Both the position numbers and the translations under genes were made by a program. Below the pieces are notes generated by a model that was not told the DNA's origin, did no database searches, and saw nothing but the letters and a program-made list of their open reading frames with translations. This document shows, in pieces, positions 5,930-60,529 of a stretch of DNA of 64,000 nucleotides (the first letter of the stretch is position 1; each line of letters begins with the position of its first letter). The DNA comes from Euglena gracilis (taxonomy: Eukaryota), in assembly GCA_039621445.1 (NCBI GenBank), contig CP154954.1:45177847-45241846 (forward strand), given 5' to 3'.

Positions 5930-5931
5930 AG

Positions 5932-7622: not shown

Positions 7623-7904
7623 CATAAATCCCGCAGGAGCTGTCAATCAATGCAGCAAGCAGCCCCCCCTTCAGGGGCAGAAGGCCAATGGAGGCCATGG
7701 TATTCAGAATCAAGAGGCCAATGGCAGCCAGTGGAGAAATCAAGACCTCAAGGCCAGGGCAGGACATTTCAATCGAAAATCAGGAGGCCAATGGGGGACA
7801 AAATATGATTCAAGATCACCACATCAGCCCTTGGGGGGGAGGCCCAAGATTGGCTGCAACAGGGCCCCCCCAGAAGATAATCAGCCCAGACACCCCAGCT
7901 TTGT

Positions 7905-15166: not shown

Positions 15167-15278
15167 TCAGCCTCGCTGCTTCAGAGTGATCTTGTCCCCA
15201 AGGCCCAAGGCAATCCCCTGGGTCTTGGAGCGGATGCGCACCAACCCTTCGATGCGTCCATCAGGGTGGCGTTCGATG
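15167..15278 (-). CDS. COPB1: beta-COP exon 26 (terminal)
   Basis: [36 protein letters not shown]. Confidence 0.95.
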
Positions 15279-24200: not shown

Positions 24201-27200
24201 GGGGGCCAGCGTGTATGTCTCCGGCCGCTCACAAAGCTTCAGGTCCCCTTGGGTCGCCAGCTCCACCGTGAGGCTTTGCAGCAAATGATCCCAAGGCACT
24301 CTTCCTCAGGTGGCCAAAAGCCCACCAATTGCAACGAGAATCAAATGTGTAATAAGACCGCCTCCCATTCGAACAGAGGGAAGGAATGAAGAAGGCATGT
24401 GGATCTGTGCTGCAACTCCGCCACATTTAGACCTTTTTCGAGATGACCTGAAAAGCATGTGAAAGAAAAGATGCAAAAAAATGCAAATACGGAGGGCCAA
24501 AGACATGTGAAAAAAATTGATAAAAATCGAGGAAAAAAATGAGTGCAAGCATGAAACATATCGGTTTTCAAAAATAATAAAATAAAAACTGCACAAAATG
24601 CAAACAAAAAATATAACAAGAGAAAAACAAAAAAAAATGTTAAAACTGTGAGGGAGTGAAACGGACACTGCCCCCCCCCCCAGGTTAATCCAGGAAACCA
24701 GTGTCCTTTTCCACTAGCCGAGGGAAGGGTGTTCCCCCCTGCGCTCCCCCTCCAAGTCCTTACGGACAGTTGCCAGCAATACCTGATACTGGGTCCTTTC
24801 CCACATTGCCCTGACATCCAGAAATGCGTTGCACGGTGCCCGCAAGCTGTAACTGTGCATTCTTTGACAAAAAAAATAAGAATAGAAACACCGAGCGCAT
24901 TTCTTCCAGTTCCCAGGTAGCTGTTTTTCTGGGGGTTGGACATTTCGACACGCAGCGGTATGATGGGGGAGGGGGTCACCCCCCCCCCAAGCCTTCCCGA
25001 CAGCTTTGGGGGTCCAGCTGACTGACGGGCTGGACCCAAAGGCAAAGAAGCAAATCCAGCTGAGAATTTCCGTAGGAGAAAAAAATGCCCCAAAACACAC
25101 CCCTCCCATCGCCCTTTATTAACCCTTCACATTTCTGCCGGAAACGTCTGGGCCTTGGCTAGAGCCAGCGAGCTGCAACTTGGACCTGCAGCTTTGTTTT
25201 CATTCATGAAAATAAGTCCAAAGGTGTTCCAACTCATCGCCCACAACTCGTTGGTTGTTCTCATCAAAATCCAATACTTTGCTAAGCGTCATAGCGCAAT
25301 CTGCTACACAATGGTGCGCATGGGAGATTTGCTGCAAGAATGGGTGCTCCATTGGGAGGTTTGCAACTATGCGCTGAATCGTGTTAGTGGGGTGTACGGG
25401 GGTATCCCTACGTGGGGTGTACAGGGGGTGTCCCCTTGGTCTTCCGCATCATTGTCCATGGGTTGAACCCAAGGATCTTTTGTTTTGTGTGGGGGCACCA
25501 GCACCTTTTTCCCTGAAGGGGTTGGATCCCCTCCCCGGGGGGTCTCAAAAATTTCCTTGCGGGTATGTCTTTGCTTCGCCTCCAGCCGGTCCAGCAAGTT
25601 GTGGGTGTAGATGTGCAGACAACATGCGGAAGTCCAAGAATCATCAAAACTGACAATGAATCCACGGAAAAGCAACATGCAACATGAGTGCTTTTCCACT
25701 TGGATGTAGAGCACCACCCTTCAGCCTCACAGTCAGACCCACCCCCTCGATTCAAGGTATCCAAAGGAGCAAGAGAAACAAGAAATAAATTTTTCACAAC
25801 TTCTTGCATTTCCAACTTCTTTTGCATATCCTTTGAGCAATGCCTTGGGTGGGAGGACTGGTTGACGACGAGGATGTCCAGGGAGATGTCGAACTGGTTG
25901 ACGGTGACCATGGCCTCCGCATACACCGGGTCGGAGAAGCCCGTCAGCTGGATGACCCTGCGGCCCGGCACACAGAGGGGGTGCTGCCAGGACTGACGTA
26001 CAGTGGCAAGAGTCCAGCGTATGCAGAATTGTTGCAGCACAGCGCCTTGCCTTGCCTGGCAGGCGTGCGAACGGAGGCAACAGAACACCTGTCCAGACGG
26101 GAAATGAAGGCGCTCTTCTTTCCCTTTGCTCCAGCAAGGCTGGTCTGTGCTGCTGCCGCAAGGCAAATGACTGACACCCAGCCAGGTCTTTTCTTAAGGA
26201 CGGGGGGGTCCACTGGGTGGCCATTTTGCCAGACACTGGGAAAAAAATGGACTTGCTAGACCCCCTGGGGGGGTCATTCCTCCAGCGCTGCGCCAAGGTG
26301 GAAATCAGGGTTTTGATGGGTTTTTTGGCTGATTTAGTTCTAAAAAAAACCAAAACTGACCAAAATGAGATTTTTTTTGGCCAGTTTTGGGGGGTCCAAA
26401 AAAACTCGGCACTTTGCACTGGTCACTGGAAAAATTTTCCACCTAGATAGTCCTGCTACTACTAGTGCTAGCAGATCCCCCCAAGGGGAGTCCACTAGGA
26501 TTTCCACTAGCCAAATTTGGACGAGCTGCAGCCCGGTGGGTACCGCGAACCCTTAAGCAGAAGCCTGCAGCAGGAGGGCAACAAACTCCAAATTTACCCC
26601 TCCCAAATATAGGACCGCCCCCAGATAGACCCCAGGGGCCCCTGAGCTGTGAAACTTCTCGCCAGGCCAGGGCCATGCTCAGCGATATCCGCACACGAAG
26701 CTGGATTGCAGCAAATCCTGTGGGGCCCTGCATGCCTTCCCAATACCGATCCGGGCTTCTGGGCTTACCCTGGAAAGCATTGCGGCACTCGGATCCTCCG
26801 TCTCATCTTCCTCTTCCAGTCGATTGTGTTTGTCTGCAGCACACAGGGAAAGGAAGCCAGCGTCGTCAAAAGCAAATCCAGAGGTGGGGTTGCTCGTTGG
26901 AGTTGGGTCCCCGACCACATGGAACGGACGCGTGGACCCTGTGATGCTTTAGCGGTACGGATCACTCTCCACTTTGGAAAACCAGTCAACCACTTTTTTT
27001 TTTATTTCGAAGAGGCAAATCACAAAAAATCTGATGAAAATACTCCCCCAGGGTTCGATACAAGGGCTGGACCCCTCCAGTCAAGGGGGGTGGCTTCTAC
27101 CGTAACAAAAACAGCCAAAATGGAACATTTTTGGTCTGGAACAAAGCGCTGGAGCAAAAAAAAACACCTGTCCCCATTTCGACTCAAAATGCCATTTTGG

Positions 27201-30200
27201 GCATTTTGGGGGTCTGGAAGAAAAAAATTGACTTTTGGGGAATCCTCCGGGGTCGGTCCAGACCCCCCCACTGTGATTAAGGATTGGTATGGGGTTTTTT
27301 AAGACTGGGGGGGAGGAAGGGTCCCCCAACCAACCCACCACCCTGTGCCCCCCCCCCGGGGAGGGGTCCCAGGGGACCCAACCCACTTTTCCCCGAAAAC
27401 CAGCGGACCCAACCCACTTTTCCCCCGAAAAGGCCAAAAAATTGTGAAAAATGCTAAAAAATTGCACCTTTTTCAAAAAAAATTGGCGCTTTCGGTGCCG
27501 AAAAATATCCCACCCCCCTCTGGGGGGGAGGAGGGCTCGGCCAGACCCCTCCCCCCGGTCCAAGACTTAAAAAAAAAAAACCTGATTGGGACTCCCCCCC
27601 TAACAAATTCTGTCCCTTGGCTCTTTTTTGAGAGGGGACTTGGATCTACGTAACTTCTTTCAAAAAAAAACTTCACTGAAAACATTTTGCAAAAAGCATA
27701 AAAAATATTTGACGGAGACAATACGTCATGTTTTTCTTTGAGGAGCACTGGAAGGAAAAAATGAAAAAAACCTCATAAAATAGAAACTGCGAAAAAAACA
27801 ACAGCAATAAGCGCTGGTGCACCACCCGAACCCCATCCTCCCCCCAGATGAAATTCAGAGCCCCCTGTCCCTGAAATACATAATTTAAATGCAATTCCAA
27901 AAATCAAAGTGTTCCAAATGGAAGCGCCCTTCCGAAAAAAAGGTATTTATAATATTGTGCAAATTTGGTTTTCTCCTTGTGCAGGATGGCTGGACCTTGG
28001 ATGGCATTGAAATCCAAAAAAATAATCCCAAAATGCCCAGAACCGGGACCCCTTCGTCAGTGTCGTGCGGGGGTGCAGTGCAGTACAGAGCAGCAACACC
28101 GTACAGCCGGTGCCATTGCCGACACCGTTCCACCGCCCCGTGTCGACCCCCCTGTCACCCCCCCCCCTCCCCCGGCACACCCTTGGAGAACTGGGAGAAC
28201 TTGATGGTGGAGTCGACGGGCACGCTGGCGGCGGCCGGGGCGGCGGTGCCAGCGTCCACCACCGTGGTGGCCGTCTCCTGCAGCATGTCCGCGAACGCCT
28301 TGACGGAGCCCTCCACCAGCGCCTAGGGCGGGGGGGGGGGGGGGCTTGGCCGCTCCGAAGTTTTGGCGGTTGGCTCCGGCCAGGGATGCGAAGCCGTGGT
28401 GGGAAGGGGAAATGTCATGGAGCGGTATTCAAGGCAAAAAAAAAACTTCCAGGCGTGAGATCATTGGGTTTGAATTTGATTTTGGGAATGTGCAAGACGT
28501 TGATGATGGACTTTGCGTGTGGTGATGTTTGAGTATGGTGAAAGATCGCACAAAATTGCGGGCCCAAAAGCAAGGCTACACAAAACAAATACAAAGGTAC
28601 AGATGGCGCATAAACGTGTTTGTGCTCGATTGTTTCTGGGGACTGGGCCAGGAGGGCCGCACCCTGATGCCTGCCCTTCTCAAGCCCTGTTGGGGCAGCA
28701 GGAGGGTTGGCAGCAACTCCAAACCGAAGCAGACGTCTGGCAAAAATCAAAGGTCGCCTTTTACCAAATTACTGGGTTGATACTATCCAAAGAAGAAACA
28801 GAACAGAAAATCAATAGGGAGAAGAAAACAAAATGCAAAAAAAAAAGAAACAAACAACAAAAAAGTTGCAAAAAACAATTTTGTTTTCCTTCACACTTGG
28901 CAGGGATGTATGGGAAGCCCTGGGGGGTTCGGACCCTCCCTCGTACCTCGAAACCGTAAAGGGCAGGGGAATTGTTTGGCTTTGTTGACGGTCAAGGACC
29001 CAATACCAGGCAAAAATATGTTGAAAAGAATCTCTGATCCTTCTTCAAAAAAATATCCAAGAACGAAAATATTCTTTGAAATTGGTTTCATTTTTTTATG
29101 TGGAAAACACCAAAACATCAAAAATGTGCAATACGCTTGAAAATGAGGAAAGGGACCTTTTTGTTGCTTTTTCTGGCGTATGTGCTGGAAGAAAATTCTT
29201 CGCTATTTTTTGGAACCTGCCAAAGGCAGTGGGGGTGGGTCCAGACACCCCCTTCCAACATCTGGAGGGCGGTCCGGACCCACCACCTTACCCAATATAA
29301 GGTGTCGATACGGTAAAGTGCCTAGATAGGGGTCTGGACCCTCCCCCTAACACCTACCTCAGCACCGCAGGCTTCCCACACATCTCTGCACCTGGGTGAC
29401 TGATTTTCAGTGAAGTTCGAAAGTGCTGCGCAGCAGTTGCACTCTCCCAAACCGTCCAACCTTATAACCTCACCTTATAACCTCACAACACCAGTAACAG
29501 TGAACTACAATAACAACAATTCTTCCCCCAAACCCACCACAGAGAAAGGGGGTTGCAAAGCTAAAAGAAAACAAACGCGTTGCACAAGAATCCAATGCTC
29601 CTGCCACCCCAGGAGATACGTTGACTTCCCTGAAGGGGGGGTGATGGAACTGACCAGGGCGGTCCTTAAGCAAAAAAAAAAGTCCTGTCCCCATACACTT
29701 CAACCAAAAAATAAGGAAAAGGGGATTTTGGCCGGGGATTTTTTTTGAATTTTTTTTTGAAAAATGAACCCAAAATACATGGTTTTTTGATGAAAAATCA
29801 CATTTTTTTCCCCAAAAAATCTCCAAATTTTTAGGGTTGAAAATTGTTCGTTTTTAGGAGGGTGGTCAAAAAAATGCAGGTCAAAAAAAATGGGACCAAA
29901 TTTTGGAACATTCAATCAAATTTTACGGACATTTTTTTTCTTGGAAATTTTTTGGATTTTCAGTGGCATTTTTTTGCTTCCAAAATCTCTCAAAATCAAA
30001 ACTTTGAGAAATGTTGAAATTTTAGAAGGTGTGAAAAAAATGGGGGTTGGGGGGGTTTTGGGCAACATTTTGGGCAGCATTTTCACCAATTTCGGGAAAA
30101 CGAGGGATTTGGGCTGAAAAAGTTTTAAATTTTTTTGAAAAATGAACCCAAAATACCGGGGGGGGTGAAATTGGGGCTAGATAAAATTAGAGCCGACAAA

Positions 30201-33200
30201 ATTGGAAGCCGAAAAAATTGGTGATTTTTTGATGGAAAACCACATTTTTTTCACAGAAAAATCTCAAAGATTTCAGGGTTAAATTTGGTAGTTTTAGGAG
30301 GGGGGTGGAAAATAACGAAGGTCAAAAAAAGTGGACCAAATTTTGGCACAGTCAAATTTTACTGACATTTTTTCTCTGTCAAATTTTTTGGATTTTCAAT
30401 GGCATTTTTTTTGCTTCAAAACCTCTCAAAATCAACATTTTGAGAAAATGTTGATTTTTTGGAAGGTGTGAAAAATGAGGTTTTGAGGGAGTTTTCCTTG
30501 CGAAATGGCCATTTTTTGAGGAAAAAGTTCTGAAGTCATTTTTGGTCATCAAAAAGTGCGCTTTTTTTGTTGTGGTTTTTTTTAGGAAAAAAGTTTTTTT
30601 TAAAAAAAGCATGCTTTTTTAAAAAAAACACATTTTTTTTAAAAAACACCTGGTTTTTTTTGTTTCAAAAAAAACAAGCAGCCAACCTCGGCAAGCACCT
30701 ATGGTCAAGCCCCAAAAATCCCCCATTATAGGCCAAGTTAGGCCAATTTAGGCCATTTAAGGCCATTTTAGGCATTTTAGGCCATTTTAGCTATGGGTGC
30801 CTAAATATGGGTCCCAAAATGGGTCAAAATGGGTCGAAGGCGCCGGAAAATTTTTTTCGGGTCCAAAACTGCCCTGGGGGGGGGGGGCGGTCCTTAAGGG
30901 GCGGTCCTTAACTAAAAAAAAAGTCCTGTCCCTTATGGACCGCCCTGGAACTGACAGCCCAATTTGGGCCATTGAGCATTTTGGGTTTGAAGGAAAAAAA
31001 GAAATCAACACTTTACATCCTTCAGCACACGGAGGGAGAAAAAGCTGTCCCTGATTGAGCAGTATTGCTGGAGTTCATCACAGCTGAGGGCCCTGAGTCT
31101 GGATCATAGATTTACTTAGTGGCCCCCCGGGGCAGGGGTTTTTTAAGACCGGGGGGGGGACCCCCCACCCACCCACCCCCTGGGGGCCCCCCCCGGGGGA
31201 CCCACAAAAAAAATGCCGAAAATCGCGAAAAGTGCTAAAAATAGCACTTTTCAGCGCCGAAAAGTATATCCCACCCCCCTCCGGGGGACCCCCCGGGGGG
31301 GGGGGGGGGCTCGGTCGGACCCAACCACCCAACCCCCCCCTCCCCCCCGGGGGTCCACGACTAAAAAAAACCCCTGCCCCGGGGGGAACTTTTTCCTGGG
31401 CCCAAACCCACCCACCCACTTTTTTGAAAACCCACCCACCCACTTTTTTTGAAACCCCACCCACCCACGACCGCCCCCGGGGGGCCAACCACCCACCCAC
31501 CCACCCACACAAACTCCAGCCAACATCGGCCCAAAACACTGAAAGAATATTTCCGGCCTGGGCTTTGGCCGGGCAAAAACCTGACTCGTGGTGCACCCCC
31601 GCCCCACGGAGGGGTCCCGGTCAGGCTTGTGCTCACTGACCGGGGGGGAGGGGGGGTGAGTGCCATAGGGCGCCTGCCCCTAGCAGGCACACCCCCCGGG
31701 GGGGGGACCCAGAAATTTTTCATTGAAAATGGCCTTTTCCGGGGCCCCGGCGCCGGGGTCGGAAGGGGGGTCCCCCACCAGGCCTTCCCGTTCTGCCCTG
31801 CTCGGGGGGGGGGGGGGGGGGGGGGGGCACCGGGACCAGGCTTGTGCTTTGTCGGGTGCCTACCCCACGGGGGGGGGGGGGGGGGGGCTAGGGGCAGGCA
31901 CCCTATAGCACCCGATCCGACCCCCCCCCGGGGGGGGGGGTCTGCTATGGGTGCCTGCCCATAGCAGGCGACCCCCCCCACCCGGGAGGTGGGGTGGGTC
32001 GACACCCGCCACCCACCACATAATTTACCCCGATTTCAGGAAAATGGGGATATTGGCCGGAAAATTTTTGAAATTTTTTGAAAAATGAACCCCAAACACA
32101 TGATTTTTTGATGGAAAATGACATTTTTTTCACAAAAAAATCTCAAAAATTTCAGGGTTAAAAATTGGTAATATTTAGGAGGGGGATGAAAAAAACGAAG
32201 GTCAAAAAAAGTGGACAAAATTTTGGCACAGTCAAATTTTAGTGATCATTTTTTTCTCGTTGAAAATTTTTGGACTTTCAATTCAATTTCAGTAGGTTCA
32301 TTTCAGGGGTTCTTGGGGGACCCCCTATATGGGTCCCAAAATGGGTCAAAAAAACACCCGGCGCCGAAAAAAATTTTCGGGTCCAAAAATTGGTGCTCCC
32401 GGAAATACGGGAAGAGGTGGTGGGGGGGGTCGACCCCCCCCACCCACCACCCTGGCTGTTCGGCCGATTCCCGTTCTGCCCTGCCCCTGGGGGAGGGGCC
32501 ACACAGGTGCTAAATGATTCTATGGTCTGGACAAGAACGCTCAAGTTCTGTGCCAAATGGTGTCCAAGCATAAATTCTCGACCTTGGCCGGAACGGTGTT
32601 GGCATTCTGCAGCAGCGCCAGACACAAGACGATCCGCTCATGGGAGTCGTTGTCGATCGGGGGCTTGGAATGGGACCCAAGGCGCAGGAGCTCGTTGACG
32701 ATCTCCATTGCATCCATCTGTCGGCCACACAAGCGAAATTGGAGCTCAAACTAGTGGATTTCCCATCCTTTGAAATAGTACTGCTATTTTCCGAAACTAA
32801 AGTGAGGTGTGGTAGACTGTGCAACACCCAGGTCAGCCCATTGCAGACGCTCACAGGACCACTGGCCGGGGGGGGGGGGTACATCGGCCATTAAAAAGAC
32901 GACGCAAAAAAAACAAATAAATGCAAATAATCGCCTAAAAAAAAATGTGCGTGCAAGCAAAATCCTTCAGGAGCTCCCCTGGGAAGGACACTTTCTGCTG
33001 GAGAGGACTTGAAATACTTTCAGCTCCGCCGGGGGAAATATTTATTTTTTTCAAAAAGAATAAAAAATAAGCATTTGACCAAAAAAAGTGCAAAAAAGTG
33101 ACAAAATTTTTGCTCTTGCGGGGAAATCAGGCAAAACGAGGAATTTTTCAGAGTCAAAGAAAAATTCCCAAAATGAAAAAAAAAACGCTGGGGAAAAAAA

Positions 33201-45200: not shown

Positions 45201-48200
45201 TTGTGGATTCATTTACACTCATCATACGTTCATTCTGCAGAGAGATGGTCACAGAGGCATCAAAAAAAATGCACTGCCAGTGGCAAAATCCAACGTTTGA
45301 AATCACCCACTAGCTACCGACCAGGCCTAGTCGGCCGACCAATTGGGTAATCGACCGACCACCCACTACCTCCCCAGTCTACCGTCTGGGTCCTCCTTGC
45401 CTTGCACAGGCGTCTTCGACAGAACAGCCAAAAAAAAGAGGATATTACCCAAATTTTTTTGCTAACTGACCTGCGACATGGGGATGCTTCACCGTACATT
45501 GGTGGATGCTGCGGACCAAGAGCTGGCGGTACTCATTGCTGGCCTGCTTGTCCACCATGGCCGTATCCTCCTGCACAAGGGATAGAAGCTTCATGTCAAC
45601 ATAAAAAGGTACGTTATTCACCAAAATGACCCCCACAGAGTTGCAGTGAGCAACTTTGGAATCAACTCCAAAAAAAACACAACACACAACAATTGCATTT
45701 CTTTACACTCTACACACCGAAGCCCAATGCTGGAAATATGCCAAACTTCCAAGACAGAGAAACGGCAAAACTTTTGACATCATTCAATTAAACAATTGCA
45801 CACTTACAGCGCCTGTATGGCAAAATCACCTGACGTTAAAGGAGATTGAGAGTGGGAACCCTGCCTCCAAATGATATCCCCCAGCCAGCTTCCCAAATAC
45901 CATGCCCCCCTGAGCTATTCCCGTCCCTGGGAACCCTTTATGGCCCAATGGGAACAGTGCGGGGGCACCTAGGCCCCCCAGTGATCTTTTCCCACACACT
46001 GACCTCGGACAGCCCAAAAGGGGTCATTTTCGGCAACTTTTTTGTTGGATGTTTGCAAAAAAAATGGTAAATTTCAAGCACATTTGCCAAAAAGCAATTT
46101 TTGAAAAGTCCAGAAAACATCGATTTTTGGCCATGTTTTTGCATGTCCTTCATTAAAAAAAAAAATGCAATGCCAGTTCCCCCCCAGTGGGAATAGCTCG
46201 GGGGGGGGCCCTAATATACACATATATACATATATATGTATATATTATTTTGGGGTGCATTATTGGGCAGATTATGAATATGTATTTGTCACTGCACATA
46301 ATAAATTCACATTGCAAATGTCCCTCTGGAAAAAAAAAGTCATGTGAAATTGGAGAAATTATTTTCCAACATAAATTGCTCCAAATTTGGTTCAACAGGC
46401 GGGAGGAAACAACTCCTGGGGTGGGGACCTGCTGAATCCCCCCCCAAAAAACATCCCCAGCAAAATAGAACCAGCTCATTCAGCAGCCAAATGTGTTACG
46501 CAAAATGCCACTTTGGTGAACCTTCTAATTGCACATCGCCACTTCATCACTTTACCACTTCGCCACTTCGGACCACAGCAGCTTTTCACACCTGCATCCG
46601 CAGCACCTCCTTCTTCAAGAACTGCACCGCCTTCTCCACGTTCTGGTTGGTGGTCAAATCCAGAGACAGGTCCAGGATCCTCCGTCTCAGGTCCATGTTG
46701 GGGGAGGCCAGAGTCCGCAACAAATCAGTCAGAAGCTCACACAAGATGTCAGGGAACCTGCAGCAGGGTTGGACCATGTGGAAAATATGCAAGAGGCAAC
46801 TCAAAATTGGTTTCCACCATTACTTTAAGGTGGCGTGAAAGGCGGTATTCAAACCACTGTGGATTCTTCCTGGTTATTAAAATTAGAGATTGGGTTGGGT
46901 GTTCACAAATTTTATCCACAGTGGAAAATATCGGCTGTCTCCAACAAAAAGCAGCTTTTTTAAATTCAAAAAAAGAGGGCACTTTGCCTAATCTGGGAAG
47001 AAAATTGTCCCAAGCACCAAGGAATCTTCTGGGATTTGGGGTAATTCCAATAAAACTGGTGCAAATGTTTGCACTGGATATGTTGAGAAATAGCTCAAGC
47101 ATGAGGAGGTGACTACATTGTAGCATCAACCACAAAGTCACATGAACACACCTCTTTTTTATGGCTTCCAAACGATCGATAACAATGAGCTTCACGTTAT
47201 TGTCAGCATGGGTTGTCAAAAGCTTCACGAAGGTGTGGGCAGCCTCTCGGATTGCAGTCCGGGATGACGCCAGGGATTGCAGCGTTGATGCGCACTGGAA
47301 AAGCACTGCCGCGTGGCGGGAAGAGAGCAGATTGGGGCTGGGAAGAGGTGTGCGATGCCAGGTGGGATGATTCAATGCAAGCACTCACTGCAACGTCTTC
47401 CCAGTCGAATATCACTGACAAGTACTTGGCCTTCTCAGCAGGGCTGGTCTTGCAGAGATGACGCAGTAAATCCACAAGTGCCAACTGGAAAGGCTCCCCA
47501 GCAAGGTCAATGTCGACATCAATTGCCTGCAAAGAAAAAGAACCAAAGTCAATAAAGAGCCGACCCTTGGATATTTGAACAAATTGAGCTCTGAATCTCT
47601 GAGACAAGAGCAGAGGAGAAGGGTCACACCTTTCGCAAATAACGAACAGCGCGCTCCTGGGCACAGTTGAAAAGCATCAAGAAAGAGTTTCGCTTTGTGG
47701 TGACATCTGGGGCAGGCAATATCAGGAAAAAAGGCCAAAATGCAGAAATCGATTTGCCACATCATTGTCAAAAAAAGGCATGTTCGGGACGTTAACACCT
47801 TCCTGTTCTTTTCTATCAACAAAAATGAAAAGAAAATTTTTAAAGTTCAAACATGAAGCCAATTTCAAATGTGCCCAAAGGTGTCCTGTCACCTCAATAA
47901 TCCCCTGAACATGACTCCACAAGGAATATTCAAATCGGTCAACATTGATAAGAATGGCAATAACTCGACCAAAGAAACTGCCTGGCAGGACTCCTTGTCC
48001 AAGGAGGCTTCAACAAGCTTTGGACAAGCCTTTGCTTGAGGAACCCCCAGGGGCCCACTGGATTGGGATTTTCGCTCGTTTAAAAAAAGCTCACCCCCGA
48101 CTGGGAAAAACTTCCTACAGCGTTTCACAGGGATGACTACCCAGCTGTAGTCCACACCTCCGGGGAAAGGCCAGGAAAGGAGGGGGCATGCTTGTGCTTA

Positions 48201-51200
48201 CCGACCGGGGGGGGGGGGGTGCTATAGGGTGCCTGCCCCTGGCAGGCGCCCTCCCCCCCCCCCGGGGGGGCTGGGGGGACCCAGAAAATTTTCATTGAAA
48301 ATGGCCTTTTCCGGGCCGGGGTGGGAGGGAGGTGCCTGCTATGGGCAGGCACCCCCAAAAACCCTGCCCCCCCCCCCCCGGGGGTCGGATGGGTGCCTGC
48401 CCCTGGCACCCCCCCATGGGGTAGGCACCCGGCTAAGCACAAGCCTGGGAGGGGGAATTGTCGCAGGAGGATATGCACTAAAAGGCCCCCCAAAATATAC
48501 GAAAGAACATGCAGGAATGTGCGCTAAATATGCAGGAAAATATGCGGAAATATGTGATTTTTCCAAAATCGGGCCACGTTTGGACATGTTCAGGTGACCC
48601 AACTGGCAATTCATTTCAAGCCATTGGGCATTTTGGGGTGATATTAGCTCACAACCGGCCACAATATTTCGCATATTTTTGTGCATATTTAGCTCGTATT
48701 TTGGCGGGTTGCAGGAATTTCCTACTACACATTTTGCCCATTCTCGCATATTTTCCGCATATTTTCCACAGCTTATTTTTATTGGGACCGTCACAATCAT
48801 TTCGGGCCTTTTGGTCATTTTTGCGGTCGTTTTCAGCATTGGGATGATTTTGCGATGGAAAATAGCCCAAATGACCAAATGCCACAGTGGCTCAGAATGG
48901 CCCAAAATGGACCAAAACTGGCAAAAAAAAAAGGTACTTGTCTGTTAGTCGATCCACGGCAAAACAGGTCGATCCACACCTATTTTTGGCCTACTTTGGG
49001 TCACTGATGTACTTTGGGTCATTGATGGACAGGGAAAGCACAAAACAGGGTCAGAAGATACGGCTGGTGTCGGCACAGGGTATAGAGAGTCAGGGTTAGG
49101 GTTTAGGGTTAGGGTTCTGGGTTTGAGTTTGGGTTTAGGGTTGGGTTAAGGTTTAGGTAACCCTAACCAACCCAAACCCAAAAACCTAACCCTAATCCTA
49201 AACCCTGACCCTAACGCTTACTCTCTAGACACTGTGCCAACACCAGCCGTATCTTCTGACTCTCTAGACACTGTGCCGACACAACAGCCGTGTATTCTGA
49301 CCCTGTTTTGTGCTTTCCCCGTCCATCAGTGACCCAAAGTAGACCAAAAATAGGGTTAGGGTTAGGGTTAGGGTTAGGGTTAGGGTCAGGGTTAGGGCCA
49401 CGTAGCCCTAACCTAGCCCTGGCCCTAACCTTAAACCTAACGCTGACCCCTAACTCTAACCCTGATGCTAGCCCTAAAACGAACCCTAACTATCTAGACC
49501 CTGTGCCAACACCAGCCGTATCTTCTGACCCTTTTTTTGTGCTTTCCCTGTCCATCAGTGACCGAAAATAGGCCAAAAATACGGTTCAGGATAGGGTTAG
49601 GGTTAGGGTCACGAAGCCCTAACCTAGCCCCAGCCCTAACCCTAACCCTGACCCTGACCCTAACCCTAAACCCAACCCTAACTCTCTAGACCCTGTGCCG
49701 ACACAACAGCCGTATCTTCTGACCCTTTTTTGTGCTTTCCCTGTCCATCAGTGACCCAAAGTAGGCAAAAAAATAGGTGTGGATCGACTAACAGACTTGA
49801 TGCACTGCCGTGGATCGACTAACAGACAAGTACCAAAAAAAATTGGCCAAAAATGCCCCAAAATGAAAACAAATGGCCGAAAATGGTTAAAAGAAGTTCA
49901 ATATGCACTTTTTTGCCAAATAAGTGAAATATGCGCTAAATATGCAAAAATGCACAAAATCTGGCACAAAATATGCGCTCCACATATCCCCCCCCCTCCG
50001 GTTGTCGGACCGGACCCTCCCCATCAACCCAGGATGGGGGTTGGGGTCTACCCCCACCATCGGGAATTCCCACACAGCCCTGGGGGGGGGGGGACTGCAA
50101 ATCCTGAAGTTAAGGCCTGGTTCTGGAGCATCCGGGAACAAATGAGGAAAGCGCTGATACACAGCCATCAAACAAAATCAATAAGTTCCAGAGGAGGGAG
50201 AGGATGGCCGTAAACGTACCAACAGCATGAAGTAATGCCAGAAAACCATGCAGGGAGAAAAGGAGGGGTAACATTTCGAGGAAACAGAAATGGTTGAACC
50301 AAAATGACAGTGGGGGGGGGATGACACAAATGGGTGGTTGGTGAAGTGGCATTCATCTTTGCCGTGAAGGGGAAATGGATGAATTTGTTTCTTGCTTTGA
50401 CTTTTGTTTCATTTCAAAAGTAGGTGAATCAATTTGATTTTGAAACCCACACATGTCACTGAGGTCATTACATCATCAATGTCCCGGGAATTTTTGTGGC
50501 GTTTGGGTCAAAAGCAAATGAACAATGAACACAAGGAACTCCTTGCATACAGCACTGCGTTGCGCCGCACATAAGAGTGCCTGAGCAGGATGGCAGAAAA
50601 AAACAACACGCTGATAAAATCTGAGACTCCGGGGTGGGGGAAACGATGCCAAGAGGGTACCCCCCCCCTATGACTCCGGGGGAGGGGGGATCTGGGGACC
50701 CACTTTTGGGGCCACGGACACACGCAATTTTTCGAAAAATATGGCCAAAAATGGCCAAACCCCACCTCCAGCAGGGGATCCACAAAACCCTTGGGGATGT
50801 GCTCAGAGAGTTCTCCAGAGCATGAAAATTTTTGGGAGAAATTGCCAGTTGCCAAGATAAATGCAGTGTTTTGGGAGGTATTGCAAACGTGCCATATCCT
50901 TCAAGGGAATGAAAAAATGGGTGATGCACCCTGCCAATTTTTTGTTTGAAATCTGGGCTCAGCCACAATTTGTGTGTAGAAATTTTTTGAAACTTTTTGG
51001 CAAATTTTCATGATGAAGGACAGGCAAACTCCAGGACATTTGTGTGTGTCAGATGATTAGAGGGATTCGTCATCATCGGACAGTGCCAAATGGTCCGATT
51101 CTGATTTTTCTGACCATTCTTCTGATTGAACTATCCAAAAATGGCCAAAAATGACCATTTTCGGATATAAAATGGCAAATTTGGGTGCCGCGCGCTCTGC

Positions 51201-52667
51201 GCACGGCCCTAAAAGCATTTTTTTCTGATCGAAAATGGTCCAAAAATGGCCAAAAAATACCACTTTTTGGACCCGAAATCACCGCTTTTAGGCCCCGCGT
51301 GGTGCGCACGGTCGCCCTCGGACTCCCCTCCCCCTCAGCCCCCCCCCCCCCACTGTGCCTAGCCTCCGATGCACCATCTAACAGGTAACAGGGGGTTTGG
51401 AACAAAAATGCATTCCAAGAATCAACACAAAGCGCTGAAGAAAAAAATTGGAGTTCACCATTCTCCTTCAGTTGGCCGGGAAAATTCTGGGCGGATCCTT
51501 AAAAGGGCAGAAAAAATCCTGGACAAAATTTTGTTCAGAATATTACCCACAATTTTTACCATTCAAGTGTTCCCCCTGCGATAGTGTCATCACGAAAGGG
51601 GATACACACCTGTGGTCCAAGTTTGCCATGATTGAATCTGTCAGGGGCTCCACCAATTCCTGTTCACGGATTTTGCTCACAAATCGGAGGGTGCAGCCTC
51701 GAACATATTCATTGGCGTGCTGAAGGTCATTTCGGATGAAATTGCAGACCAATATCATCTCTGGCAGCAACTTGCCAGAGGAGTCGGTTTTGTCGATGAT
51801 CTCCAGAAAATAAAGAGTCAACTTCTTCAATTTGTGATCTTGCTTAACACCAGGCTTGATTTGACGAAGGATGGACCTTACGCAGAGTGATGACCTCAGG
51901 GTTAGGGAGGAAACTTCCTACTTCCTACGACTAGTGACCTGTTCTTTCCGATGTGGTGACCATTGCGGTACTTGTCTGTTATCGTACGACGGACCCCCCC
52001 CCTTTCGGTTATGGTACGACACCCCTTTTTTGGGTTTTTTAGGGTTAATTAAAGGAATAGGGTTAGGTGCGCACATGCATGTTTGCGCTACATGGCCACG
52101 TTGCGCTACATGGCCACGTTGCGCTACATGGCCGTGTAGCGCAACGTGGCCATGTAGCGCAACGTGGCCATTAGCGCACCTAACCCTACTCCTTCAATAA
52201 CCCCAAAATAGCGCTACATGGCCATGTAGCGCTATTTTGGGCGCTTCGCGGCCATGTAGCGCAACGTGGCCATGTAGCGCAACGTGGCCATGTAGCGCAC
52301 TGTAGCATGAGCGCACCTAACCCTACTCCTTCAATAACCCCATAACAACCCAAAAAAAGGGCGTCGTACCATAACCGAAAGGGGGGGGGTCCGTCGTACG
52401 ATAACAGACAAGTACCACCATTGCTTTTTCACCGCTTACCTTGACCCTTCAAACACGAGCCTGGCTGGGCAGCACAAATCGGATGAAAGTCATCAGCATG
52501 GCACTTTGAGGTTCACCATTGAGATGGAGCATGATCATCTGCTTCATGTGCTCAACTTGGGAATCCGTGTTGCCCTTTTCCAGAGCCTCCTTCAATTCCT
52601 TTTGGCCAATGTGGACACCATCATAATGGATGAGCTGTGTGCACTGCGTCTCTTGAGTTTGTGACAT
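15167..52667 (-). CDS. COPB1: Coatomer subunit beta (beta-COP), complete 26-exon gene, 952 aa
   Basis: Exons in transcript order: 52467-52667, 51610-51845, 50549-50580, 50123-50173, 47988-48019, 47630-47707, 47407-47526, 47152-47333, 46592-46757, 45471-45570, 44411-44523, 41659-41760, 40723-40788, 39300-39377, 39014-39105, 33320-33434, 32583-32717, 28181-28322, 26769-26833, 26089-26144, 25851-25957, 24149-24286, 23498-23600, 22496-22630, 17945-18046, 15167-15278. They sum to 2859 nt with all phases compatible. Hallmark beta-COP motifs are in order: [104 protein letters not shown]. Confidence 0.96.
16007..17316 (+). mobile_element. Diverged solo member of the same family
   Basis: Starts caggctgtgtatggagctgagctcttt; ends gctcttgctctaaagagataaaagctcagcgcc. 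Confidence 0.65.
17945..18046 (-). CDS. COPB1: beta-COP exon 25
   Basis: [37 protein letters not shown]. Confidence 0.95.
18085..19480. mobile_element. Non-autonomous hAT-like element with subterminal (TTTTAGGCCA)n arrays
   Basis: 13-bp TIR CAGGCACCTATAG/CTATAGGTGCCTG; perfect 8-bp TSD gtggcagc; short relative at ~30692-30802. Confidence 0.9.
22496..22630 (-). CDS. COPB1: beta-COP exon 24
   Basis: [26 protein letters not shown]...TNM; AG/GT. Confidence 0.96.
23006..23403. mobile_element. hAT-like MITE (CAGGCTT...AAGCCTG)
   Basis: Imperfect TIR, degenerate 8-bp TSD gtcgtttt/gtctgttt; relative at ~26183-26567. Confidence 0.7.
23498..23600 (-). CDS. COPB1: beta-COP exon 23
   Basis: (G)[37 protein letters not shown]. 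Confidence 0.95.
24149..24286 (-). CDS. COPB1: beta-COP exon 22
   Basis: (H)[21 protein letters not shown]...NIKVSSTDT. Confidence 0.95.
24287..25850 (-). other. Nonconventional intron 21
   Basis: C|accCAAggca...tgccTTGggatc|AT; 9-bp stem; restores NQSSHLLQ. Confidence 0.87.
25851..25957 (-). CDS. COPB1: beta-COP exon 21
   Basis: [35 protein letters not shown]; nonconventional donor. Confidence 0.95.
26089..26144 (-). CDS. COPB1: beta-COP exon 20
   Basis: [18 protein letters not shown](R); required for phase; AG/GT. Confidence 0.87.
26769..26833 (-). CDS. COPB1: beta-COP exon 19
   Basis: (D)[21 protein letters not shown]; cag/gtaag. Confidence 0.87.
28181..28322 (-). CDS. COPB1: beta-COP exon 18
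   Basis: [16 protein letters not shown]...[14 protein letters not shown]; tag/GT. Confidence 0.92.
31133..31376. mobile_element. hAT-like MITE (244 bp)
   Basis: CAGGGGTTTTTT...AAAAAACCCCTG; TSD ccccgggg on both sides. Confidence 0.85.
32583..32717 (-). CDS. COPB1: beta-COP exon 17
   Basis: [33 protein letters not shown]...; AG/GT. Confidence 0.94.
33320..33434 (-). CDS. COPB1: beta-COP exon 16
   Basis: [23 protein letters not shown]...; AG/GT. Confidence 0.94.
33736..34009. mobile_element. MITE with CAGGGCAGAACGGGAA TIR
   Basis: 16-bp TIR; near-TSD caccccac/caccccca; relatives at ~19616-20203, ~31780-32483 and from ~38370. Confidence 0.75.
35355..38082. mobile_element. Foldback-type DNA element rich in TTGCGC-N4-GCGCAA palindromes
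   Basis: TIR ttaggcggcctaactcgca/tgcgagttaggcctcctaa; flanking direct repeat gccgttc; internal inverted repeats at ~35790-36135 and ~36977-37450. Confidence 0.75.
39014..39105 (-). CDS. COPB1: beta-COP exon 15
   Basis: [30 protein letters not shown](R); AG/GT. Confidence 0.92.
39300..39377 (-). CDS. COPB1: beta-COP exon 14
   Basis: [30 protein letters not shown], phase 0-0, poorly conserved linker. Confidence 0.75.
40723..40788 (-). CDS. COPB1: beta-COP exon 13
   Basis: [26 protein letters not shown]. Confidence 0.9.
41659..41760 (-). CDS. COPB1: beta-COP exon 12
   Basis: [38 protein letters not shown]. Confidence 0.94.
41800..42101. mobile_element. hAT-like MITE (same family as 48187-48447)
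   Basis: gcttgtgctta...taagcacaagcctg; near-TSD gaccccat/gaccctat. Confidence 0.75.
42600..42675. repeat. (TATAG/TATAT)n pentamer microsatellite
   Basis: Directly visible. Confidence 0.85.
43200..43547. repeat. C-run/G-run MITE-like repeat (CCCCCCCTAATTG...CAATTAGGGGGG)
   Basis: Repeated inverted motifs; relatives at 53277-53485 and 56572-56741. Confidence 0.55.
44411..44523 (-). CDS. COPB1: beta-COP exon 11
   Basis: [41 protein letters not shown]. Confidence 0.95.
45471..45570 (-). CDS. COPB1: beta-COP exon 10
   Basis: [37 protein letters not shown]. Confidence 0.95.
46592..46757 (-). CDS. COPB1: beta-COP exon 9
   Basis: [28 protein letters not shown]...[17 protein letters not shown] flanks. 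Confidence 0.95.
47152..47333 (-). CDS. COPB1: beta-COP exon 8
   Basis: [18 protein letters not shown]...TAIREAA...[12 protein letters not shown]. Confidence 0.95.
47334..47406 (-). other. Nonconventional intron 7 (73 nt)
   Basis: TTC|gactgggaaga...tcttcccagcccc|AAT; 9-bp perfect terminal stem in the same register; restores VIFNLL. Confidence 0.88.
47407..47526 (-). CDS. COPB1: beta-COP exon 7
   Basis: [40 protein letters not shown]. Confidence 0.92.
47630..47707 (-). CDS. COPB1: beta-COP exon 6
   Basis: [28 protein letters not shown] donor. Confidence 0.92.
47708..47987 (-). other. Nonconventional intron 5
   Basis: TCC|tgcCAGgcag...ttgcCTGcccca|GAT; restores KESDVTTKRN. Confidence 0.8.
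47988..48019 (-). CDS. COPB1: beta-COP exon 5 (32-nt microexon)
   Basis: (E)[10 protein letters not shown]; fills the exact gap in the alignment; both flanks nonconventional. Confidence 0.8.
48187..48447. mobile_element. hAT-like MITE (261 bp) nested in nonconventional intron 4
   Basis: catgcttgtgctta...taagcacaagcctg; perfect 8-bp TSD ggaggggg. Confidence 0.85.
48933..49834. mobile_element. Merlin-like foldback MITE containing TTAGGG/CCCTAA repeats
   Basis: 29-bp TIR GGTACTTGTCTGTTAGTCGATCCACGGCA; A8 on both flanks. Confidence 0.8.
50123..50173 (-). CDS. COPB1: beta-COP exon 4
   Basis: (C)[16 protein letters not shown]; both flanks nonconventional. Confidence 0.88.
50174..50548 (-). other. 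Nonconventional intron 3
   Basis: T|atgCAAggagttcc...ggaacttaTTGatttt|GT; restores VLCLMAVY. Confidence 0.85.
50549..50580 (-). CDS. COPB1: beta-COP exon 3 (32-nt microexon)
   Basis: [10 protein letters not shown]; cag acceptor, nonconventional donor. Confidence 0.9.
51610..51845 (-). CDS. COPB1: beta-COP exon 2
   Basis: [17 protein letters not shown]...[27 protein letters not shown]...NLDH; GT donor. Confidence 0.95.
51846..52466 (-). other. Nonconventional intron 1
   Basis: CCC|agcCAGgct...agcCTGgtgtt|AAG; no GT-AG; paired ends; restores LPKQDH. Confidence 0.88.
51967..52416. mobile_element. Merlin-like foldback MITE nested in nonconventional intron 1
   Basis: TIR >60 bp starting GGTACTTGTCTGTTATCG; 8-bp TSD accattgc; internal 20-bp tandem repeats. 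Confidence 0.88.
52467..52667 (-). CDS. COPB1: beta-COP exon 1
   Basis: MSQTQE...[39 protein letters not shown]; ends at a nonconventional donor. Confidence 0.93.
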
Positions 52668-52682
52668 TGTTGTTGTTGAGTG

Positions 52683-52697
52683 CTGATTGAGAAAGGG
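52683..52697 (-). promoter_or_regulatory. Candidate spliced-leader trans-splice (or 5'UTR cis) acceptor of beta-COP
   Basis: Minus strand ccctttctcaatcag| lies 15 nt upstream of the ATG; euglenozoan mRNAs are SL trans-spliced. Confidence 0.45.

Positions 52698-58689: not shown

Positions 58690-58726
<37 letters not shown>

Positions 58727-60493: not shown

Positions 60494-60529
<36 letters not shown>

What the first reader, a model, noticed from the sequence alone, without database searches (positions are those of the whole stretch)
24287..52466. Six non-GT-AG, stem-defined introns interleaved with 19 spliceosomal introns in one housekeeping gene
Seen: at six junctions (introns 1, 3, 4, 5, 7, 21) no GT-AG pair restores the protein. 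One rule does so in all six: intron +4..+6 pairs with -8..-6 within a longer terminal stem. The spliced product has the expected length at each junction (LPKQDH, VLCLMAVY, DAPELVE, KESDV, VIFNLL, NQSSHLLQ). Lengths range from 73 to 2103 nt. Established: this matches euglenid nonconventional introns, whose excision machinery is unidentified. Intron 7 uses TGG/CCA instead of CAG/CTG, so pairing appears to matter more than sequence (inference).
Basis: partly seen in the sequence, partly recalled or inferred. Interest (0 to 1): 0.85.

Follow-up and report, generated by a model that had tools for sequence, protein, structure and literature searches.

The report
Nonconventional introns in Euglena coatomer gene
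A coatomer-beta gene of a Euglena alga carries six introns that lack the usual GT-AG ends and are instead bounded by a short stem between the intron ends, which is a real but already well-described peculiarity of euglenid genomes.

Summary
The minus strand carries a 26-exon coatomer beta (COPB1) gene, with ATG at 52667 and stop near 15167. Its model ORF is 907/945 identical to a Euglena longa transcript protein.

Introns 1, 3, 4, 5, 7 and 21 have no GT/GC-AG solution that keeps the conserved protein length.

RNA-seq raw reads (53-92 per junction) and two transcript-like contig sets skip exactly 621, 375, 2103, 280 and 73 nt at introns 1, 3, 4, 5 and 7. A DNA-like run holds only the unspliced form. 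Intron 21 lay outside the single read-laying run. It rests on homology plus an 11-bp in-register helix.

These are euglenid nonconventional introns, a known class. They make up 57% of catalogued E. gracilis introns and 71.8% of E. agilis introns, and a splicing code was published in 2025.

Only introns 1 and 5 fit that code strictly. Introns 3, 4, 7 and 21 keep the register and pairing but not the CAG/CTG letters. Intron 19 is unresolved, so "19 spliceosomal" is 18 plus one open.

The finding is correct but already known, so interest is low.

The parts
15167..52682 (-). Coatomer beta (COPB1) gene: 26 exons, 25 introns. mRNA body starts at 52682 after a trans-splice acceptor AG (52684-52683). 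ATG at 52667-52665, stop about 15169-15167.
   Evidence: the model ORF is 946-948 aa and 907/945 identical to P0003. P0003 carries Adaptin_N, Coatamer_beta_C and Coatomer_b_Cpla; 35 reads carry a loose end at 52683 next to the AG.
51846..52466 (-). Intron 1, nonconventional, 621 nt, ends AG..TT. CAG (+4..+6) pairs with CTG (-8..-6). Helix +2..+9 (52465-52458) with -11..-4 (51856-51849). Next exon starts with A. Fits the published code.
   Evidence: RNA joint 51844->52466 skips 621 nt: 67 X20 reads, 1 contig each in X1 and X10, none in X15.
50174..50548 (-). Intron 3, nonconventional, 375 nt, ends AT..TT. CAA/TTG core, then a G/A mismatch at +7/-9, then 7 more pairs (+8..+14 with -16..-10). Next exon starts with G. 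Outside the published CDG/CH'G code.
   Evidence: RNA joint 50173->50549 skips 375 nt: 64 X20 reads, X1 and X10 contigs, none in X15.
48020..50122 (-). Intron 4, nonconventional, 2103 nt, ends AA..AA. CAG/TTG with one G-U pair. 8-bp helix +4..+11 (50119-50112) with -13..-6 (48032-48025). Next exon starts with A. The interior holds high-copy repeats.
   Evidence: RNA joint 48018->50122 skips 2103 nt: 56 X20 reads, X1 and X10 contigs, none in X15.
47708..47987 (-). Intron 5, nonconventional, 280 nt, ends TG..CA. CAG/CTG, 8-bp helix +4..+11. Next exon starts with G. Fits the published code. A GC-AG pair one nt away (47986..47707) is not used.
   Evidence: RNA joint 47707->47988 skips 280 nt with no positional ambiguity (both=0): 53 X20 reads.
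47334..47406 (-). Intron 7, nonconventional, 73 nt, ends GA..CC (or 47407..47335, CG..CC). TGG/CCA at +4..+6/-8..-6. 9-bp helix +3..+11 (47404-47396) with -13..-5 (47346-47338). Next exon starts with A.
   Evidence: RNA joint 47333->47407 skips 73 nt: 92 X20 reads, X1 and X10 contigs. X15 contig record 11 runs unspliced across it.
24287..25850 (-). Intron 21, predicted nonconventional, 1564 nt, ends AC..TC. CAA/TTG, 11-bp helix +2..+12 (25849-25839) with -14..-4 (24300-24290). Next exon starts with A. Not covered by RNA here.
   Evidence: Five homologues show no length change at this junction.
50581..51609 (-). Intron 2, conventional GT-AG, 1029 nt.
   Evidence: RNA joint (CT..AC on the + strand), 53 X20 reads.
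47527..47629 (-). Intron 6, conventional GT-AG, 103 nt.
   Evidence: RNA joint, 42 reads.
46758..47151 (-). Intron 8, conventional GT-AG, 394 nt.
   Evidence: RNA joint, 80 reads.
45571..46591 (-). Intron 9, conventional GT-AG, 1021 nt.
   Evidence: GT-AG costs one score point. RNA joint, 87 reads.
44524..45470 (-). Intron 10, conventional GT-AG, 947 nt.
   Evidence: RNA joint, 59 reads.
41761..44410 (-). Intron 11, conventional GT-AG, 2650 nt.
   Evidence: RNA joint, 33 reads.
40789..41658 (-). Intron 12, GT-AG by position, 870 nt. Its joint is not among the 15 rows that one search printed.
39378..40722 (-). Intron 13, conventional GT-AG, 1345 nt.
   Evidence: RNA joint, 78 reads, X1 contig only.
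39106..39299 (-). Intron 14, conventional GT-AG, 194 nt.
   Evidence: RNA joint, 97 reads.
33435..39013 (-). Intron 15, conventional GT-AG, 5579 nt, full of high-copy repeats.
   Evidence: RNA joint, 65 reads.
32718..33319 (-). Intron 16, conventional GT-AG, 602 nt.
   Evidence: RNA joint, 54 reads.
15279..32582 (-). Introns 17, 18, 20, 22, 23, 24 and 25 lie in this span. All are GT-AG by position only: 32582..28323, 28180..26834, 26088..25958, 24148..23601, 23497..22631, 22495..18047, 17944..15279.
   Evidence: No RNA was laid here.
26149..26790 (-). Intron 19, type unresolved. Candidates are GT-AG 26788..26150 (+2 aa), GT-AG 26788..26153 (+3 aa), or a stem-type 26790..26149 (+1 aa; 6-bp helix TGCCGC/GCGGCA in the +4/-6 register).
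   Evidence: Register of the stem-type option read from the sequence printed, not computed. No RNA was laid here.

Best explanation
The region is the coatomer beta-subunit gene of a Euglena. The species is probably E. gracilis, because the product is 96% identical to an E. longa transcript protein. The gene is SL-trans-spliced and interrupted by 25 introns.

Eighteen introns are ordinary GT-AG spliceosomal introns. Six (1, 3, 4, 5, 7, 21) are euglenid nonconventional introns.

The ends of each nonconventional intron can pair so that intron position +p lies opposite -(p+2). This gives a core of +4..+6 with -8..-6, extended to 8-11 pairs. It leaves 3 unpaired or loosely paired nt at the 5' end and 5 at the 3' end, followed by a purine as the first exon base.

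Proposed mechanism: the helix brings the two junctions together. A still unidentified, probably spliceosome-independent activity cuts at these fixed distances and joins the exons. According to the literature it releases the intron as a circle, after the conventional introns have been removed.

Shown here:
- precise excision at non-GT-AG borders for five introns;
- the in-register pairing potential;
- the 3/5 spacing and the purine.

Inferred or taken from papers:
- that the helix forms in vivo and is what is measured;
- the machinery, the circles and the order of removal;
- the excision of intron 21.
For: Gene identity and model. The ORF is 946-948 aa and 907/945 identical to P0003. The GGOE01 accession prefix belongs to E. 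longa according to a passage of bioRxiv 10.1101/573709.

No GT/GC-AG or AT-AC boundary reproduces the conserved junction peptides at the six sites.

Rule and helices:
- 6 of 6 candidate introns meet the rule, against 2 of 18 GT-AG introns.
- Random expectation is 6.9% for the core and 0.32% for a helix of 8 bp or more.
- Folding the terminal 16 nt of each end with a U7 linker gives a mean of -13.4 kcal/mol for nonconventional introns against -4.1 for GT-AG introns (one-sided Mann-Whitney p=0.0012).

RNA:
- X20, on record as RNA-seq raw reads, has 67, 64, 56, 53 and 92 reads across the joints of introns 1, 3, 4, 5 and 7. Ten GT-AG joints have 33-97 reads.
- Contig sets X1 and X10 (guessed to be RNA) carry the same joints with 0-1 other letters in the listed exon pieces (table 8).
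- X15 (DNA-like) has none of the 15 joints. Its 1941-nt contig runs unspliced across introns 5-8.
- Intron 5's joint has no positional ambiguity and excludes the GC-AG pair one nt away.

Spliced leader: a loose end in 35 reads lies directly upstream of an AG acceptor at 52684-52683.

Literature defines exactly this class: PMC6221363 (passages), PMC12501133 (introduction and Results), PMC11170887 (sections 5, 6 and 10) and PMC11282704 (passages).
Against: - A weak GT-AG alternative (25858..24301) that adds 2 aa cannot be excluded from sequence alone.
- Only 2 of 6 introns (1 and 5) meet the experimentally defined code N3CDG/CH'GN5-6|R. Introns 3, 4, 7 and 21 do not.
- Intron 7 with its flanks folds no better than shuffled sequence: MFE -23.6 kcal/mol, z=-0.37, 62 of 200 shuffles fold as well. 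The signal is therefore the position of the helix, not overall stability.
- Some GT-AG introns also have strong end-to-end duplex energies (introns 16 and 18).
- The purine at the first exon base does not discriminate here: 15 of 18 GT-AG introns have one too.
- X1 and X10 are only guessed to be RNA.
- Helix formation, circles, order of removal and the machinery were not tested here.
Confidence: 0.93

Rival explanations
1. The six are spliceosomal introns with unusual splice sites (non-canonical U2-type, or U12-type AT-AC), and the terminal stems are incidental.
For: Intron 3 starts with AT. The published work does not exclude an additional spliceosome (PMC11282704 passage; PMC11170887 section 10).
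Against: - The end pairs are AG..TT, AT..TT, AA..AA, TG..CA, GA..CC and AC..TC. None is GT/GC-AG or AT-AC.
- All 18 GT-AG introns of the same gene are preceded by an exonic G. The six are preceded by C, T, G, C, C and C.
- The in-register helix is present in 6/6, against 2/18 GT-AG introns and 6.9% at random.
- Intron 5 ignores a GC-AG pair one nt away.
Confidence: 0.04
2. The junctions are artefacts: reverse-transcriptase template switching, assembly errors, or mRNA that comes from an intron-less or differently structured paralogue.
For: Non-canonical 'introns' flanked by short repeats are a classic template-switching artefact. Four of the five RNA-confirmed junctions have 1 nt of ambiguity.
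Against: - Microhomology is only 0-1 nt.
- The same joints appear in three data sets from three studies, at read counts equal to those of the GT-AG joints.
- Intron bins are almost empty in X20. For example, depth is 0-0.1 at 48698-50031, against 10-19 in exon-dense bins.
- Exon pieces of the contigs match the window with 0-1 other letters.
- The DNA-like run holds none of the joined forms.
- Excision is needed to restore a 946-948 aa ORF that is 96% identical to the orthologue.
Confidence: 0.01
3. Intron 21 alone is a conventional intron that uses the GT at 25858 and the AG at 24301, giving a product 2 aa longer. The 11-bp terminal helix would then be coincidental.
For: An in-frame GT-AG pair without stop codons exists there. 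No RNA was laid on this part of the gene.
Against: - Five homologues, from 97% identity to more distant ones, show no length change at this junction.
- The donor is not preceded by the exonic G seen in all 18 GT-AG introns of this gene.
- An 11-bp helix in the exact register has a chance frequency of about 3 in 10,000 per position, and 9 positions were allowed.
Confidence: 0.08
4. The introns are cut by a known structure-specific enzyme, such as the tRNA-splicing endonuclease acting on a bulge-helix-bulge-like fold, rather than by a new machinery.
For: - Cleavage occurs at fixed distances from a helix.
- Circular introns are reported (PMC11282704 passage).
- Ligated exons and circular introns are hallmarks of endonuclease/ligase splicing (established knowledge, recalled).
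Against: [quoted passage not shown]
- The helices here are 8-11 bp with a 3/5-nt asymmetric overhang, not two 3-nt bulges around a 4-bp helix (the bulge-helix-bulge geometry is recalled).
- This was not tested systematically here.
Confidence: 0.05

Closest known systems
Euglenid nonconventional nuclear introns (tubA, tubB, gapC and others; genome-wide in E. gracilis and E. agilis)
   Same: - Non-GT-AG, variable borders.
- Pairing of +4..+6 with -8..-6, extended into a terminal helix.
- 3-nt 5' spacer and 5-nt 3' spacer.
- Purine at the first base of the downstream exon.
- Lengths from tens to thousands of nt.
- Coexistence with GT-AG introns in one SL-trans-spliced gene.
- Lineage-specific positions: intron 1 is absent from the genomic ORFs P0004 and P0005 of two relatives.
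   Different: Nothing differs in kind. Four of the six (3, 4, 7, 21) fall outside the strict experimentally defined motif CDG/CH'G, which covers 61.2% of E. agilis nonconventional introns. At 6 of 25, this gene has fewer such introns than the catalogued share in E. gracilis (57%).
Intermediate (hybrid) euglenid introns: GT/GC-AG ends plus a nonconventional-type stem
   Same: - Intron 5 has a GC-AG pair one nt from the borders actually used. This resembles the tubA intron described in PMC6221363.
- Intron 19 offers both GT-AG borders and an in-register 6-bp stem.
   Different: RNA shows that intron 5 uses the TG..CA borders, not GC-AG. Intron 19 is unresolved here.
Transposon-derived introns with terminal inverted repeats (introners and MITE-like introns in Micromonas, dinoflagellates and others)
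   Same: Short terminal inverted repeats and gain at new positions. The review PMC11282704 proposes a MITE origin for the euglenid class.
   Different: Introners are removed by the spliceosome at GT-AG or near-canonical sites. The six introns here share no similarity with each other within the window, and they have only 0-1 nt of junction repeat.
U12-type (AT-AC) and other non-canonical spliceosomal introns
   Same: They also lack GT-AG borders.
   Different: No AT-AC pair is present, and the borders vary from intron to intron. Definition is by an end-to-end helix rather than by splice-site and branch-site consensus.

Membership tests
Euglenid nonconventional introns | Borders that are not GT/GC-AG (nor AT-AC), established against the mature mRNA | tested here: met
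   RNA joints for introns 1, 3, 4, 5 and 7, with 53-92 raw reads each. Intron 21 rests only on protein homology.
Euglenid nonconventional introns | Base pairing of +4,+5,+6 with -8,-7,-6 that brings the intron ends together, usually within a longer helix | tested here: met
   met in 6 of 6 (intron 4 with one G-U pair). Helices are 8, 3 (11 pairs over +4..+14, one mismatch), 8, 8, 9 and 11 bp. Controls: 2 of 18 GT-AG introns and 6.9% of random position pairs.
Euglenid nonconventional introns | No U1-complementary 5' splice site and no polypyrimidine tract | tested here: inconclusive
   The 5' ends start AGCCAG, ATGCAA, AACCAG, TGCCAG, GACTGG and ACCCAA, and none has a GT donor. The 3' ends of introns 3 and 5 are pyrimidine-rich, and no formal tract test was run.
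Euglenid nonconventional introns | Host is a euglenid nuclear gene (SL-trans-spliced mRNA) | tested here: met
   907/945 identity to an E. longa transcript protein. A T-rich (mRNA sense) loose end in 35 reads abuts an AG acceptor at 52684-52683. That this end is the spliced leader is recalled, not tested.
Euglenid nonconventional introns | Published splicing code 5'-N3CDG-/-CH'GN5-6|R (PMC12501133) | tested here: not met
   met by introns 1 and 5 only. Introns 3 and 21 have CAA/TTG, intron 4 has CAG/TTG and intron 7 has TGG/CCA. The code is stated to cover 61.2% of the class, so failing it does not exclude membership.
Euglenid nonconventional introns | Excised as full-length circular RNA, after the conventional introns | not tested
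   Known only from passages in PMC11282704 and PMC6221363. One search printed only the 15 best-supported joints, and none of them goes back on itself.
U2-type spliceosomal introns | GT/GC-AG borders with an exonic G before the donor in this gene | tested here: not met
   for the six introns. The feature is met by the 18 other introns.
U12-type introns | AT-AC or GT-AG borders with a conserved 5' splice site | tested here: not met
   no AT-AC pair restores the protein. Intron 3 starts with AT but ends with TT.

The most novel reading that the evidence does not exclude
Introns 3 and 7 are RNA-verified, intron 4 has a G-U pair, and intron 21 is predicted. All four are excised as efficiently as their neighbours, although they break the genetically defined code. 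They carry U:A at +4/-6, or A:U or G-U at +6/-8, in place of the C...G letters. They keep the +p/-(p+2) register, the 3/5-nt spacers and the exon purine.

The unknown machinery would then read the geometry of the terminal helix rather than the CAG/CTG letters. A relaxed, covariation-based rule could then account for much of the 38.8% of nonconventional introns that the published code leaves unexplained.
Probability: 0.4. Interest if true: 0.35.

Novelty: already known. Interest (0 to 1): 0.2.

Why it matters
The case shows that a sequence-only reader can recover a non-spliceosomal intron class and its border rule, and the call holds up against RNA data. Biologically it adds little. Nonconventional introns are a majority or near-majority of Euglena introns, genes that mix both intron types are described as common, and a splicing code was published in 2025.

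The modest added value is a set of well-documented natural introns in a housekeeping gene that keep the register and pairing but not the CAG/CTG letters. They are ready-made test cases for whether the unknown excision machinery reads structure or sequence.

Tried and rejected
- Whole-genome look-up: no genome is held for this window.
- Run search: no RNA holder was listed in the index. Evidence on expression comes only from the laid runs.
- Rfam scan of the whole window at gathering thresholds: 0 matches.
- Earlier notes of this scan: none for this genome and none for the search words.
- Global fold of intron 7 with flanks: not more stable than shuffles (z=-0.37). Overall stability was dropped as an argument.
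- Self-comparison of the six introns within the window: no similarity between them. Only the interior repeats of introns 1 and 4 recur elsewhere, so there is no sign here of one recently spread element family.
- GT/GC-AG and AT-AC solutions allowing indels: rejected for introns 1, 3, 4, 5 and 7 by RNA, and disfavoured for intron 21 by the conserved length.
- Exact own-species protein: the protein search returned no 100% match, so junction 21 could not be checked that way.
- Pfam on four flanking ORFs: only a zinc knuckle above the curated cut-off.
- Literature: a search for 'nonconventional intron' plus 'coatomer' found 0 papers.
Full report
**What is there**

The minus strand of the window carries a coatomer beta-subunit gene.

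- A translated exon retrieved P0003, a 945-aa protein from a transcriptome record with the prefix GGOE01. It is 97% identical over that exon.
- That prefix is used for Euglena longa in a passage of bioRxiv 10.1101/573709.
- P0003 carries Adaptin_N, Coatamer_beta_C and Coatomer_b_Cpla.
- Ungapped tblastn of P0003 against the reverse strand gives 26 collinear exon blocks from 52667 to 15170.
- Joining the exons of my model gives an uninterrupted ORF of 946-948 aa. The length depends on intron 19. The ORF is 907/945 identical to P0003.
- The organism is therefore a Euglena very close to E. longa. E. gracilis is my inference, not a tool result.

**Checking the observation**

I slid the split point at each junction while holding the protein length fixed.

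- A GT-AG boundary is available for 18 introns. It lies at the best score for 17 of them.
- For intron 9 it costs one score point. RNA later confirmed that boundary.
- Introns 1, 3, 4, 5, 7 and 21 have no GT-AG boundary at fixed length. Their lengths are 621, 375, 2103, 280, 73 and 1564 nt.
- A wider scan allowing indels found only GT/GC-AG or AT-AC pairs that alter conserved residues or length.

Among the allowed boundary positions of each of the six, exactly one puts +4..+6 opposite -8..-6 by Watson-Crick pairs. Intron 4 is the exception: its chosen option holds one G-U pair, and a second option pairs only through G-U.

| Intron | Window coordinates | +4..+6 / -8..-6 |
|---|---|---|
| 1 | 52466..51846 | CAG/CTG |
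| 3 | 50548..50174 | CAA/TTG |
| 4 | 50122..48020 | CAG/TTG |
| 5 | 47987..47708 | CAG/CTG |
| 7 | 47406..47334 | TGG/CCA |
| 21 | 25850..24287 | CAA/TTG |

**Is it more than chance?**

- In the fixed register (+p opposite -(p+2)) the contiguous helices are 8, 3, 8, 8, 9 and 11 bp. The intron 3 helix forms 10 pairs over +4..+14, interrupted by one mismatch at +7/-9.
- Of 200,000 random position pairs in the window, 6.9% show the 3-bp core with G-U allowed and 2.1% with Watson-Crick pairs only. A helix of 8 bp or more appears in 0.32% and one of 11 bp or more in 0.03%.
- Of the 18 GT-AG introns, 2 (introns 9 and 10) show the core, both through G-U pairs.
- I folded the terminal 16 nt of each end with a U7 linker. 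The mean is -13.4 kcal/mol for the six and -4.1 for the 18 (one-sided Mann-Whitney p=0.0012).
- Against this, intron 7 with its flanks folds no better than shuffled sequence (z=-0.37; 62 of 200 shuffles fold as well). GT-AG introns 16 and 18 also have strong end-to-end duplexes.
- The signal is therefore the position of the helix, not stability as such.

**RNA evidence**

The run search listed 14 contig runs that hold 0.38 of the sampled words, which is the exon share. It also listed one run holding 0.79, and several raw RNA-seq runs of the same species label. No indexed holder is on record as RNA.

I laid X1 and X10 (contigs, guessed RNA), X15 (unknown kind, holding 0.79 of the words) and X20 (raw RNA-seq) on window 32690-52689. 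That call printed its 15 best-supported joints, and 851 more were not shown. All 15 are introns of my model.

- Ten are CT..AC on the plus strand, which is GT..AG on the gene strand: introns 2, 6, 8, 9, 10, 11, 13, 14, 15 and 16. They have 33-97 X20 reads.
- Five are the nonconventional introns:

| Intron | Skip (nt) | X20 reads | Positional ambiguity (nt) |
|---|---|---|---|
| 1 | 621 | 67 | 1 |
| 3 | 375 | 64 | 1 |
| 4 | 2103 | 56 | 1 |
| 5 | 280 | 53 | 0 |
| 7 | 73 | 92 | 1 |

- In every case the rule-compliant boundary is one of the positions the reads allow.
- For intron 5 the reads exclude the GC-AG pair one nt away.
- X1 holds all 15 joints and X10 holds 14 of 15 (not intron 13), one contig each.
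- X15 holds none of the joints. Its 1941-nt contig runs unspliced from 46251 to 48206, across introns 5-8.
- Intron 12's joint is not among the rows printed.

Introns 17-25, including intron 21, lie outside the one read-laying run allowed. Intron 21 therefore rests on three things:
- no length change in five homologues at that junction;
- the lack of a same-length canonical boundary;
- an 11-bp in-register helix.

A weak GT-AG alternative that adds 2 aa exists. I give it about 8%.

**What it is**

These are euglenid nonconventional introns.

- The +4,5,6 / -8,7,6 pairing is stated in PMC6221363 (passages) and in PMC11282704 (passages).
- PMC11170887 (sections 5, 6 and 10) catalogues 28,337 E. 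gracilis introns. Of these, 4,498 plus 11,653 are nonconventional. Their consensus is CCAGG at +3..+7 and CCTG at -9..-6, and their ends pair.
- PMC12501133 (outline with introduction; whole Results) reports 71.8% nonconventional introns in E. agilis.
- The same paper defines, by knock-ins in E. gracilis, the signature 5'-N3CDG-/-CH'GN5-6|R. It states that many genes hold both intron types.
- The machinery is still called unknown.
- Removal after the conventional introns and release as circles are reported in passages. The primary circle paper (J Mol Biol 2021) I saw only as a reference.

**Comparison with the published code**

- Introns 1 and 5 fit the code fully.
- Introns 3 and 21 carry CAA/TTG, intron 4 carries CAG/TTG (G-U at +6/-8) and intron 7 carries TGG/CCA.
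- All six keep the 3-nt and 5-nt spacers and a purine at the first base of the downstream exon. However, 15 of 18 GT-AG introns also have a purine there.
- None of the 18 GT-AG introns fits the code.
- Intron 7 has a second reading allowed by the reads: borders 47407..47335, giving N3-CTG ... CAG-N3 followed by a C. That keeps a functional motif pair, since CTG-CAG worked in the knock-ins. It violates the 5-6-nt 3' spacer and the purine.
- It is not established. The knock-in study found constraints beyond pairing at the middle motif position.
- The code is said to cover 61.2% of the class, so exceptions are expected.

**Mechanism**

Shown here:
- precise excision at non-canonical borders;
- in-register pairing potential;
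- fixed spacers.

Inferred: the helix juxtaposes the junctions and serves as the ruler for two cuts, 3 nt upstream and 5 nt downstream of the +4/-6 pair, and the exons are then ligated.

Taken from papers only: circular product, late removal, and independence from the standard spliceosome.

**Rivals**

- Non-canonical spliceosomal splicing. The border dinucleotides vary. The exonic G that precedes all 18 GT-AG donors is present at only one of the six 5' junctions (intron 4). An adjacent GC-AG pair is ignored.
- Artefact or paralogue. Microhomology is only 0-1 nt, three data sets agree, intron depth is near zero, and no joined form occurs in the DNA-like run.
- A known structure-specific endonuclease. 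This was not tested. The literature says the fold is unlike tRNA introns.

**Novelty**

The kind is already known and is common in this genus.

- A search for 'nonconventional intron' plus 'coatomer' found no paper.
- The gene has fewer nonconventional introns (6 of 25) than the catalogued E. gracilis share of 57%.

**Other points**

- Intron 19 is unresolved between two GT-AG options and one stem-type option.
- Two relatives' genomic ORFs (P0004 and P0005) read straight through the position of intron 1. They then run into an intron at the position of intron 2.
- This fits the published view that nonconventional introns are gained at new positions while conventional ones are conserved.

**Verdict**

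The phenomenon is already known, and interest is about 0.2.

Noticed in passing
window 52682-52690 (minus strand): 35 RNA-seq reads end their match at 52683 and continue with a 10-letter loose end that is T-rich in mRNA sense. It lies directly beside an AG at 52684-52683, preceded by a pyrimidine-rich stretch. This looks like the spliced-leader trans-splice acceptor and would leave a 15-nt 5' UTR before the ATG at 52667. That the end is the spliced leader is recalled, not tested.
   Followed up: partly
window 26149-26790 (minus strand), intron 19: No same-length GT-AG boundary exists. Three in-frame options remain: GT-AG 26788..26150 (+2 aa), GT-AG 26788..26153 (+3 aa), and a stem-type 26790..26149 (+1 aa) with a 6-bp helix in the +4/-6 register. 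It may be an 'intermediate' intron. No RNA was laid here.
   Followed up: partly
window 47707-47987, intron 5: A GC-AG pair lies one nt from the borders actually used and would give Y instead of the conserved D. The RNA joint has no ambiguity and uses TG..CA. This resembles the tubA 'intermediate' intron discussed in PMC6221363.
   Followed up: yes
window 41704, 46619 and 51777 (exons 12, 9 and 2): In the raw RNA-seq run, 46 of 67, 65 of 114 and 39 of 58 reads show another letter at these sites. The DNA-like run X15 carries that other letter in its single contig at each site. X10's contig carries it at 51777 only. This fits two expressed alleles or strain differences rather than editing.
   Followed up: no
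proteins P0004 and P0005 (relatives): Genomic ORFs of two related organisms (88% and 84% identical in exon 2) read straight through the position of nonconventional intron 1. They stop shortly after the position of conventional intron 2. Intron 1 is therefore absent there, while intron 2 appears conserved in position.
   Followed up: partly
window 33357-38692, 41361-43361 and 48031-48697 (inside introns 15, 11 and 4): Summed contig depth in the DNA-like run reaches tens to hundreds of thousands, for example 251,297 at 35358-36024, against about 40-50 over unique exon-bearing bins. The long introns are packed with very high-copy repeats.
   Followed up: no
window 1-10000: There are long ORFs on both strands. 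A 1263-aa ORF at 1601-5389 (minus) has a CCHC zinc knuckle. ORFs at 7881-9916 (plus) contain a YLDD-like motif by eye but have no Pfam hit. This is probably a retroelement upstream of the gene's 3' end.
   Followed up: partly
window 56600-61200: Stop-to-stop ORFs repeat nearly the same peptide several times at intervals of roughly 490 nt on both strands, which suggests a tandem repeat array. No tandem-repeat tool was run.
   Followed up: no
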